Below, piece after piece: positions 45,086 through 52,492 of a stretch of 64,000 nt of DNA. The DNA is from the human T2T-CHM13v2.0 reference genome, Homo sapiens. The stretch lies in the NCBI RefSeq assembly GCF_009914755.1, contig NC_060947.1. One strand, 5' to 3'. Under the pieces are notes generated by a model. It did no database searches, was not told where the DNA came from, and saw nothing but the letters and a program-made list of their open reading frames with translations. The translations under genes were made by a program, and so were the position numbers. How positions within the stretch are numbered: the first letter of the stretch is position 1; each line of letters begins with the position of its first letter.

Positions 45086-48000
45086 CTGAAGATTGGCAAA
45101 ATCCAGTATGTGAAGACAGCACTAAATTTTCAGTCACAGGCTTAATTTTCTGTTCATCGCTGCTTCCCTCACCTATAGAATTCTGATCATCATCTTCTAT
45201 ATCAGAAGAAGATGAGGATGTAATGTCAGCTTGCTTCCTTTTAGTGCTTGTTCTTAGGGAGTTTCTCTTTTTCTCCTTGACAATGACTGCCTTCTTTTTA
45301 GATGAAGTTCTTTGCTTCTTCTTTTTATTATCTTCAGAACTTTCCTCAGCATCAGATGATGATGAGCCACTTTGTATTTCCTTAGTATTTCTCTTTGAAC
45401 TTAAATTTCTTCTTTCCCTCAATTCTATTCTTTTCAGTCTCTTATCAGAAGAGTTACAACCATCTTCTTTCATGGAATATTTCTCAGTATCAGATGATGA
45501 ACAATCTTGTCTCTTCCTTGAACTCTTTCCAAGCAACTTGCACCTTTTCTTCTCTCTACCATATGCTCCATTCTTACTCTTTTTATCCTCTGAAGAGTCA
45601 CAACTATCTCCTTTCCCTGTTGACTTCTCAGCATAATCAGATAATTCATCCTTCTTTTTAGAAGTTTTATCTCTTATTTTTTTACTTTTCTTTTCTCCAT
45701 CAGTTGTTCCATTCTTAATTTGTTTTATGCCCTTAGGAAAATGACAAATTTCTTCTCGCTCAGGTAACTTTTCAGTGCCATCAGATGAAGATTCATACTG
45801 TTGTTCCATTTTAATTACTTTTTTCTTAAAGTCTGAAGGTTTCTTTTTTTCTTCAGTTCCCTTTTTGCTCTGCTTTTTATCATCTTCAGAAGTTTCATCG
45901 CTCTGGTCTTTCTTTAGGAATTTCTCTGCAATATCAGATAAGCCATCCTGTACTTTTTTACATGTTTTGGTTTTGAGATGCTTGCTCTTTTCTTTAGTTT
46001 CAGCAACTTTTCTAACTTCCAAAGAAGTAAAACTCTGCTCTTTCCCAGAAAGCTTATCGACACCATCAGTGGAAGCACTTGCTTGCTGCTTCTTAGGAAG
46101 TCGATCTCTTAATTCCATGATGGTCGTGTCTTTATCAACTGTGCCTTCTGCTGAAGAGAAAGTCTCTCTCTCTTGTTTTCTTTCAGCATCATCAGATGAT
46201 CCTTCTTGTGAGGTCTTCAAATTTTTGTGCCCTTGATTATCCATTCCTTTTTTGCTGTGTTTCTCATCTTCAGAAGAGTCAAAATCTTTTGTATTTGGAA
46301 TTCTTTTTTTGGTGGTTCTGGCAGCACCAATTTTACTCATGCTCTTTATCTCTTTTTCTAATTCTGAGTCATAATTAGAAGACTCAGACTGGGTTTGTCG
46401 TTTCTTTTTAGAAATTATAGAGCTCTTAGCTGATTTGCCCTTTTTAGTATCAAAATCTGAGCCAGATGTAGAACTTTTTCGTTTCCTTTTTCCTTTATCA
46501 TCTTTCCCCGCCTGAGTCTTTAAATCATACAAAGTCTTATGGTTTGTATGAATTTCATTAATATCAGTATCTGAAGAAGAACTGTGACTCATCCTGCTCA
46601 CCTCTTTGAGGATTGCTAGCATTTCATCAGAATCTGAATTTTGATCCACAGTCTCTGATTGCTTAGATTTTGGCAATTTATTAGGCTTAGGATTATCTAT
46701 AGCACTGTCAGAAGAATTACGCTTATCCTTTTTTCTCACTGGAACTGATAGTTTTTGTTTCTCCTTAACTGTTTCATTACATTCTTCATCTGAATTAGAT
46801 GTTACAGGGTTAGTTTCTGTCGGTCGCCTCAAGGGTGTAGTCTTTACACGTGGGGATCTTCGAAGATCAGATTCCTCTAAAAGTAATGAAACTTCATTTT
46901 CAACCAAATGCTCATTATCACTGTTTTCCTGTCCAAGTCCACATTTCTCTAACTTGGGGTTCAGACCACAACTTTTATAGCCATCTTTATCTTGTGGAAC
47001 TTCCTGACAATCAGCACCTTTAATTGGGGAATTAGAAAGGGAAACAGGAGTGAGTTTAACATATAATTCTTTTGTTACTTTAGCTGTAGTTTTTGATTTA
47101 ATACCTCCTCTGTTGTCTTTTGAAGAAATATTTAATTTTACAGATGAACTCTCCACTTCTTGTTCAGTTCCACTGCTGCCATCCCCTTGATGATCAACTG
47201 AACTCTGAACTTCCATAGCAGTCTCAAGATTCTCAAAAATGTCTTCTGGAACTGAGGAAGGAACAGACACAATATCCATGTCTAAATCTTCAGAAGTGTT
47301 GGCAGGTTCATATTGAGGTTCTTCTTTTCTATCAGATTTCTTATGTTCACCACCGGTACTTTTATTTGTTCTTTGTTCCTCTGTTGGAACATTCTGATGC
47401 ATGTGCTCACTATCTACCTGTTTTCTTGAAAGTTTAGCTTCTGACTTTGAAATATCCTTCTTTTCCAAAGCACAAGGTTTTTCTCCTTTTCGTGCTTTTG
47501 TTTCAAACTTAGCATCTATGACTTTATGCTCTTTGGTATTTTTCTCTTTGTTTACAGCATCCATCGCTCGAAACTCGGAATTTAAGTCTTCTTCCAATGC
47601 AAGATGAGCCTTCTTAATATCAGCCAACACAGACTTAAAAGCCTTAAGCTGACGTAATTTTGTAGCAGAACTGATTTCTGAATTATCTGTTGCCTGCTTT
47701 AAAAATTTAACATAACTGGAGTTCATGTTGGCTGTGGTCTCAATCAGTTTTTTTGCCTTCTTAATCATCTCTTTGGGCACAATTAGTGCGGAATAAGAGT
47801 AGGTTACAGAGCCAGAACAGGAATCATCTAATTTCTTTTCTTCTCCATTACAATTTGAACTAGTCTTCTTTGGAGAAAATCTGGATGTATGTTCATATAC
47901 TTTATTACTCTTTTCACTGTCAACTTTTATCTTCTTCTTATTTTGCTGCAACAACTGTTCTAAATTCTCAAATACGCTGTTACATGCAGTGACCAAGTCC

Positions 48001-48159
48001 AACAAAGGCTCTGGGTGACAAATGTAGCAATACCATTGGTTGTTTTCATCCATTATTGTGGACAACTCCTTTCGACCAAGGTTGCGTAGAATGCATTTCT
48101 TGCAGAAAGCATTATGGCAAAAGTCACAACAAATCAAGTTTCCACCTTCCGCACACCAC
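45086..48159 (-). CDS. ATRX: ATRX exon 9 (3,074 nt): PHD finger of the ADD domain followed by a long Lys/Ser/acidic disordered region with the HP1-binding LYVKL motif
   Basis: 1021-aa ORF 45072..48137(-) containing CCDFCHNAFCKKCILRNLGRKELSTIMDENNQWYCYIC; CAG acceptor at 48160-48161; CAG|GTATGC donor at 45084-45085. Confidence 0.99.
47052..47066 (-). other. ATRX: Codons for the HP1-binding PxVxL-variant motif LYVKL (residues 586-590)
   Basis: TTA TAT GTT AAA CTC read on the minus strand; established HP1-alpha binding site of ATRX. Confidence 0.85.
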
Positions 48160-52382: not shown

Positions 52383-52492
52383 CTTACAAATAAGAACTTG
52401 CAATGAAGGGTGTCTATAAATGGAATCTTTTTGAAAATGATTGACCTGTTGTCCACAAGCAGTGCAGCTCACAATCCCATGAAGCCCATCTT
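52383..52492 (-). CDS. ATRX: ATRX exon 7 (110 nt), start of ADD domain GATA-like finger, (E)DGLHGIVSCTACGQQVNHFQKDSIYRHPSLQVLICK
   Basis: Lies inside ORF 52341..52532(-); CxxC motif; TAG acceptor; AAG|GTATGT donor. Confidence 0.98.

What the first reader, a model, noticed from the sequence alone, without database searches (positions are those of the whole stretch)
47018..47104. 87-nt in-frame exitron inside exon 9 that removes the HP1-binding LYVKL motif
Seen: within coding sequence the minus strand reads GAG|GTATTA...CTCACTCCTGTTTCCCTTTCTAATTCCCCAATTAAAG|GTGCT. This gives a donor, branch-like CTCAC and TCTAAT motifs, a pyrimidine tract that is unusual in this purine-rich exon, and an AG. Removal of c.1718-1804 deletes 29 residues (about 573-601), keeps the frame and excises LYVKL (586-590), the established HP1-alpha binding site. 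I recall a curated ATRX isoform lacking residues 573-601, which fits but needs checking. Inference: a splicing switch that produces HP1-uncoupled ATRX.
Basis: partly seen in the sequence, partly recalled or inferred. Interest (0 to 1): 0.7.

Follow-up and report, generated by a model that had tools for sequence, protein, structure and literature searches.

The report
Known ATRX exitron deleting HP1 motif
This is a real, already published 87-base mini-intron hidden in the largest coding exon of the chromatin gene ATRX, normally kept unused by the protein RBMX; splicing it out removes the short motif that ATRX uses to bind HP1, which would likely loosen ATRX from heterochromatin, but it is more likely a suppressed leak than a purposeful switch.

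Summary
Observation confirmed: window 47018-47104 (minus) is an 87-nt GT-AG segment inside ATRX exon 9 (c.1718-1804); removal keeps the frame and deletes residues 573-601 with LYVKL 586-590. It is already known: RefSeq annotates it (hub table), a 2020 preprint names an 87-nt RBMX-controlled exitron in ATRX exon 9, 'hardly ever used' in control cells, and the eLife 2024 RT-PCR primers bracket it. Added here: protein records lacking this segment exist for 9 other placental mammals; pig and manatee use an acceptor shifted by 6 nt, so those models are not copies of the human one. Against a selected switch: murine rodents cannot form the donor, the pyrimidine tract largely follows from a peptide conserved to reptiles, and horses carry a second, lineage-specific exitron in the same exon. 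The link to HP1 binding was not found in print and is inferred from the V588E mutant. Best reading: an old, RBMX-masked cryptic exitron whose product would lack HP1 binding. Interest 0.3.

The parts
47018..47104 (-). 87-nt in-frame exitron in ATRX exon 9 (c.1718-1804; codes for residues 573-601 when retained)
   Evidence: RefSeq alternative exons 45086-47017 and 47105-48159 in the hub table; preprint passage
47099..47107 (-). 5' splice site GAG|GTATTA, formed by codons Gly572-Gly573-Ile574
   Evidence: rank 2 of 123 GT in exon 9 by a rough matrix; codons
47050..47054 (-). likely branch point CTCAC (A at 47051, -34); predicted, not mapped
   Evidence: no AG between -53 and the acceptor
47026..47050 (-). 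polypyrimidine tract (22 of 25), coding for TPVSLSNSP
47018..47019 (-). 3' splice site AG (AAAG|G), from codons Lys601-Gly602
   Evidence: rank 4 of 308 AG in exon 9
47052..47066 (-). codons for LYVKL (586-590), the LxVxL HP1-binding motif
   Evidence: V588E named as HP1-site mutant in PMC5577318
47105..48159 (-). upstream piece of exon 9 (1055 nt) when the exitron is spliced
   Evidence: hub table
45086..47017 (-). downstream piece of exon 9 (1932 nt) when the exitron is spliced
   Evidence: hub table
45086..48159 (-). host ultra-long exon 9 (3074 nt), densely bound by RBMX
   Evidence: PMC11446547 passages and supplement rows

Best explanation
The segment is a true spliceosomal exitron in ATRX exon 9 that RBMX normally represses, and it is likely an old cryptic by-product of the coding sequence whose product would lack HP1 binding. 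Steps: (1, shown in print) RBMX binds exon 9 densely; its loss turns the exitron on, and RBMXL2 or RBMY restores repression. (2, predicted) The spliceosome uses the donor at 47104, a branch A at -34 and the first AG downstream. (3, shown by translation) The mRNA stays in frame without a new stop, so it should escape decay, and codes for ATRX lacking residues 573-601. (4, inferred) That protein keeps the ADD, DAXX-binding and ATPase regions but loses the LxVxL motif, so it should behave like V588E: weaker heterochromatin and senescence foci, little change in replication-stress or telomere functions. (5, inferred) The acceptor side is largely a side effect of the conserved peptide after the motif; in placental mammals a usable donor 87 nt upstream completes the pair, and masking by RBMX keeps the cost low enough for it to persist.
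For: Preprint passage: 87-nt exitron in ATRX exon 9, RBMX-controlled, hardly used in control cells. eLife passages and supplement rows: exitron, annotated, repressed by RBMX with both siRNAs in HEK293, restored by RBMXL2. Primers map to 47191-47173 and 46913-46887, giving 305 vs 218 bp. Recoding with the protein fixed already gives a mean of 17.6 of 25 pyrimidines; LxVxLTPV is present in 85 of 85 records new, 83 of them non-placental. Residue 573 is Asn, which cannot supply the GT, in 3 of 58 species records plus Mus caroli, all murines; Ser, Cys or Arg in 9 more. Horse and donkey records carry a second in-frame deletion (437-523) that matches an Ala-to-Gly change at 437, showing that this exon gains exitrons by single changes. 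V588E lowers foci and senescence; an LxVxL mutant is nearly neutral for replication stress, telomeric ssDNA and telomeric H3.3.
Against: The event is annotated in 9 other placental species from 4 orders of Boreoeutheria plus an afrotherian (17 of 239 stored proteins), always removing the motif in frame; long persistence of a site that removes a conserved motif could mean it is kept. Synonymous positions lean towards splicing: 8 of 9 fourfold sites in 590-601 are pyrimidines (exon mean 58%), 0.5% of 20,000 recodings reach 22 of 25 pyrimidines and 0.48% match both site scores, though the site was chosen for these features. Usage was seen described only for cell lines; tissues were not examined here.
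Confidence: 0.7

Rival explanations
1. A regulated, selected switch of placental mammals: cells lower RBMX activity (stress, senescence entry, development) to make an HP1-uncoupled ATRX that keeps H3K9me3 reading, DAXX binding and ATPase activity.
For: Clean in-frame removal of the motif and little else; native models in 9 other species, with a shifted acceptor in pig and manatee that still removes the motif in frame; synonymous bias to pyrimidines; in-frame exitrons are enriched for short linear motifs (PMC4484396 passages).
Against: Hardly used in control cells; donor impossible in murines; no natural inducing condition found; RBMXL2 replaces RBMX where it is silenced; 72 of 600 recoded exons hold a comparable in-frame pair somewhere.
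Confidence: 0.2
2. A reverse-transcription or mapping artefact (falsitron) that entered annotation.
For: A 4-nt direct repeat (AGGT) spans both ends, which meets the lowest threshold of PMC8240250. Published evidence seen is cDNA-based.
Against: Canonical GT-AG with a strong tract and donor; depends on RBMX and is rescued by paralogues; no stable hairpin (z +1.46, 190 of 200 shuffles fold as well); single copy in the genome; ATRX absent from the falsitron paper's text and 5 supplements; the pig and manatee boundary moves as first-AG scanning predicts.
Confidence: 0.03
3. The exitron is real but its product matters for another reason than HP1, or not at all: the protein is not made in useful amounts, or HP1 contact is kept indirectly.
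For: An LxVxL mutant is nearly silent in several assays; no protein evidence for the isoform was found; ATRX also reaches heterochromatin through its ADD domain.
Against: No new stop codon; V588E alone lowers foci and senescence; no second good LxVxL/PxVxL in the part of the protein coded in the window (only LQVLI 192 and LSVPV 691).
Confidence: 0.07

Closest known systems
RBMX-repressed exitron of ATRX exon 9 (bioRxiv 10.1101/2020.10.09.333039; eLife RP89705, PMC11446547)
   Same: Same gene, exon and length (87 nt); published primers bracket 47018-47104; listed as annotated. This is the same event.
   Different: The papers give no exitron coordinates in the text seen, and the word HP1 occurs 0 times in either main text: they do not say what the deletion removes. 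The preprint gives the exon as 3097 nt; it is 3074 nt here and in the eLife supplement.
In-frame exitrons (EIx3) of Marquez et al. 2015 (PMC4484396)
   Same: Internal to a long coding exon, canonical signals, no stop, multiple of 3, removes a short linear motif.
   Different: AT-rich (28.7% GC against 36.3% for the exon), whereas exitrons are described as GC-richer than retained introns; tissue regulation not shown. The paper's gene lists could not be read.
RBMX-repressed cryptic sites in ETAA1 exon 5 and REV3L exon 13
   Same: Ultra-long exon, RBMX masking, rescue by RBMXL2 and RBMY.
   Different: Those are single cryptic 3' sites that remove most of the exon (ETAA1 protein is lost); here a donor-acceptor pair removes 29 residues and leaves the enzyme otherwise whole.
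ATRX V588E / LxVxL mutants and the ATRXt isoform
   Same: The mutants remove the same contact and are the best guide to the phenotype.
   Different: They are engineered point changes. ATRXt, the studied natural isoform, is the reverse case: it keeps HP1 binding and lacks the ATPase.

Membership tests
Exitron (Marquez 2015) | Lies wholly inside an annotated protein-coding exon | tested here: met
   47018-47104 within exon 45086-48159 (hub table)
Exitron (Marquez 2015) | Canonical 5' and 3' splice sites | tested here: met
   GT and AG; scores within the range of the window's real sites
Exitron (Marquez 2015) | Branch point | tested here: inconclusive
   Consensus-like A at -34; not mapped
Exitron (Marquez 2015) | No stop when retained; multiple of 3 for the in-frame class | tested here: met
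   87 nt, open in both forms
Exitron (Marquez 2015) | Both spliced and retained forms seen in RNA | not testable with these tools
   No reads here; reported in print and annotated by RefSeq (hub table)
RBMX-repressed cryptic events in ultra-long exons | Host exon over 1 kb | tested here: met
   3074 nt
RBMX-repressed cryptic events in ultra-long exons | Rises on RBMX loss, RBMX bound nearby, rescued by RBMXL2 | not testable with these tools
   Published: supplement rows say repressed, iCLIP present, restored; primers map around this segment
Falsitron (RT artefact, Schulz 2021) | Direct repeat of 4 nt or more at the ends | tested here: met
   AGGT, the minimum length, made of the splice consensus itself
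Falsitron (RT artefact, Schulz 2021) | Lacks canonical GU-AG and pyrimidine tract | tested here: not met
   Both present
Falsitron (RT artefact, Schulz 2021) | Stable hairpin joining the ends | tested here: not met
   -13.4 kcal/mol, weaker than shuffles
Falsitron (RT artefact, Schulz 2021) | Absent from direct RNA sequencing | not testable with these tools
   No reads available
Conserved regulated isoform switch | Event present in several lineages | tested here: met
   17 protein records of 9 other placental species; gene models, not reads
Conserved regulated isoform switch | Splice signals kept throughout the clade | tested here: not met
   Asn573 in four murine records excludes the GT
Conserved regulated isoform switch | Sizeable, condition-specific use in normal cells | not testable with these tools
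HP1 chromoshadow-binding PxVxL/LxVxL motif | Pentamer with central Val, conserved | tested here: met
   LxVxL in 58 of 58 placental species records and 85 of 85 records
HP1 chromoshadow-binding PxVxL/LxVxL motif | Mutation of the Val abolishes HP1 binding | not testable with these tools
   V588E cited as the HP1-site mutant; the primary paper (Eustermann 2011) was not held; no solved structure of this region

The most novel reading that the evidence does not exclude
An RBMX-gated exitron, used across placental mammals and lost in mice and their kin, is a dedicated switch that makes ATRX unable to bind HP1 while leaving its histone reader, DAXX site and motor intact; it would tie RBMX dosage to heterochromatin and senescence, offer a route by which RBMX-linked intellectual disability overlaps ATR-X syndrome, and be invisible in mouse models.
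Probability: 0.2. Interest if true: 0.65.

Novelty: already known. Interest (0 to 1): 0.3.

Why it matters
The event itself is annotated and published. Two additions are useful. First, what it deletes is precisely the HP1-binding motif, so RBMX loss is predicted to yield a natural separation-of-function ATRX; this gives a cheap, direct test of one route from RBMX deficiency to heterochromatin and senescence defects. Second, the event appears in gene models across placental mammals but cannot occur at this donor in murine rodents, so mouse Rbmx models would miss it. If usage stays low in all normal tissues it is an ordinary cryptic site and matters mainly for interpreting RBMX perturbations and synonymous or missense variants near the sites.

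Tried and rejected
TCTAAT as branch point: A at -15, too close. RT artefact: rejected. Paralogue or pseudogene source: one match in the genome for 46800-47400. Solved structure of residues 523-640: 0 matches at E up to 10. Projection of the human isoform as the sole source of other species' records: possible for the 29-residue records (chimpanzee and the TrEMBL dog record above all), not for pig and manatee, whose boundary differs, nor for the horse-only second deletion. Deletion records outside placental mammals: 0 of 83, but the query was a full-length form and only 120 of 305 hits were listed, so this is weak. Literature searches for the HP1 link: 'ATRX exitron' (3 listed of 4), 'ATRX HP1 LxVxL', 'ATRX V588', 'ATRX RBMX heterochromatin splicing', 'ATRX isoform/HP1/exon 9/alternative splicing' (25 of 86 listed), 'ATRX/retained intron/exon 9/cryptic splice' (20 of 55 listed), 'ATRX HP1 586 chromoshadow', 'RBMX ATRX exon 9', 'ATRX 573-601' (0 papers): none seen to link the exitron to the motif; most hits were seen as listings only, and subscription papers are not covered. 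The exitron lists of Marquez 2015 and bioRxiv supplements could not be read and may list the event. No orthologous DNA was available, so the synonymous-rate test was not done.

Full report
Observation. The minus strand at 47104-47018 is an 87-nt stretch that starts with GT after GAG and ends with AG before GTG. Joining the window's 13 annotated exons gives one open frame. With 133 coding bases assumed for exons 1-2 (recalled; the numbering then places Val at 588, as in print), the stretch is c.1718-1804, phase 1; removing it leaves the frame open and deletes residues 573-601, including LYVKL at 586-590. Its 3' part is the most pyrimidine-rich 25-mer of exon 9 (22 of 25). A rough matrix from the window's 13 donors and 13 acceptors ranks the donor 2 of 123 GT and the acceptor 4 of 308 AG in the exon. 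Consensus-like branch As lie at -34 and -15, and no AG lies between -53 and the acceptor; -34 fits the usual spacing (established knowledge).

Chance. With the protein fixed and exon 9 codon usage, 0.48% of 20,000 recodings matched both site scores at this place and 0.5% reached 22 pyrimidines; the mean was already 17.6. This is after the fact, as the site was picked for these features. Allowing any place in the exon, 128 of 600 recodings held a pair as strong within 65-500 nt, 72 of 600 in frame, 9 of 600 in frame within 150 nt. So the protein supplies much of the tract, and third positions add to it.

It is known. The hub table lists RefSeq exons 45086-47017 and 47105-48159. [quoted passage not shown] The eLife version PMC11446547 (passages, Discussion and supplement rows read) reports dense RBMX binding in exon 9, exitron formation on knock-down, and rescue by RBMXL2 and RBMY. 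Its ATRX primers map to 47191-47173 and 46913-46887, for products of 305 and 218 bp. The papers give no exitron coordinates in what I saw, and figure values (percent spliced) are not held; identity rests on length, primers and annotation. HP1 occurs 0 times in both main texts.

What is lost. PMC5577318 (passages) names V588E as the HP1-site mutant and finds fewer ATRX foci and less CDK4-inhibitor senescence. PMC13074095 (passages) places the HP1 interaction domain at 581-594, ADD at 161-292 and the DAXX region at 1189-1326. PMC13372662 (passages) finds the LxVxL mutant only weakly needed under hydroxyurea and not needed for telomeric ssDNA control or telomeric H3.3. PMC7465937 (passages) gives LxVxL as a degenerate PxVxL motif. 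The primary binding paper was not held. The isoform is therefore predicted to lose HP1 binding with a limited phenotype; I found no test of it.

Other species. Three protein searches (120 of 328 hits listed; 102 hits; 120 of 305) and one search of representatives (10 hits) stored 239 proteins. Twelve lack exactly 573-601 (green monkey, chimpanzee, tarsier, dog, five horse, two donkey, red deer) and five lack 573-599 (manatee, four pig). The green monkey record equals its full-length partner minus 29 residues. Pig has Val at 600 and the manatee record reads Val after the junction; since human has CCA ATT at 599-600, Val would create a CAG 6 nt earlier, which first-AG scanning would choose (inferred; no DNA seen). 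These records cannot be copies of the human boundary. All are gene models and cluster representatives, not reads, and say nothing on abundance.

Selection or by-product. In 58 records picked one per species from the 144 then stored, residue 573 is Gly in 46, Ser 7, Asn 3, Arg 1, Cys 1, while LxVxL is kept in all 58. Asn cannot supply the GT; it occurs in three murines and in Mus caroli. LxVxLTPV is present in 85 of 85 records new, 83 of them from reptiles, birds, marsupials and platypus, none with the Gly-Ile or Lys-Gly flanks of placentals; whether their DNA holds splice sites was not testable. Horse and donkey records carry a second in-frame deletion, 437-523, and these species have Gly at 437 where human has Ala: this exon gains in-frame exitrons by single changes. 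Together this favours an old cryptic pair tolerated under RBMX masking over a selected switch, without excluding the latter.

Artefact. A 4-nt repeat spans both ends, but the region folds worse than 190 of 200 shuffles, is single-copy, has canonical signals, depends on RBMX, and ATRX is absent from the falsitron paper PMC8240250 (passages and 5 supplements).

Known class. It meets the tested features of an in-frame exitron of PMC4484396 (passages; supplements not held), though it is AT-rich (28.7% GC).

Verdict. Real and already known as an RBMX-repressed exitron. New here, as far as ten searches of open papers reach, are the overlap with the HP1 motif, the presence in other placental gene models with a shifted acceptor, and the loss in murines. 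Cryptic by-product 0.7, regulated switch 0.2, real but without HP1 consequence 0.07, artefact 0.03. Interest 0.3.

Noticed in passing
window 47252-47512 (-), residues 437-523: Horse and donkey protein records lack these 87 residues (261 nt) in frame. Equids, rhino, pangolin and one elephant shrew have Gly437; human has Ala (GCT AAG T), one base from a near-perfect donor, and already holds the pyrimidine-rich acceptor at 47252. A human Ala437Gly variant would be predicted to open this second exitron.
   Followed up: partly
window 46877 (-): Top-scoring AG of exon 9 by the rough matrix; with the donor at 47104 it would remove 228 nt in frame (76 residues, also the HP1 motif). Not in the RefSeq row and just outside the published amplicon, so that assay could not see it.
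   Followed up: no
window 46601 (-): Top-scoring unused donor in exon 9 (GAG|GTGAGC); no acceptor as strong as the exitron's within 500 nt.
   Followed up: no
window 52489-52492 (-): The alternative exon end in the hub table is a tandem acceptor (TAG AAG), a 3-nt shift that drops one codon.
   Followed up: partly
proteins P0091 and P0105: Records with other long gaps in exon 9 (residues 778-869 and 868-972); could be further exitrons or assembly gaps.
   Followed up: no
proteins P0146, P0147, P0152, P0154: Unnamed, diverged ATRX-like proteins (52-62% identity), some with a decayed or missing HP1 motif.
   Followed up: no
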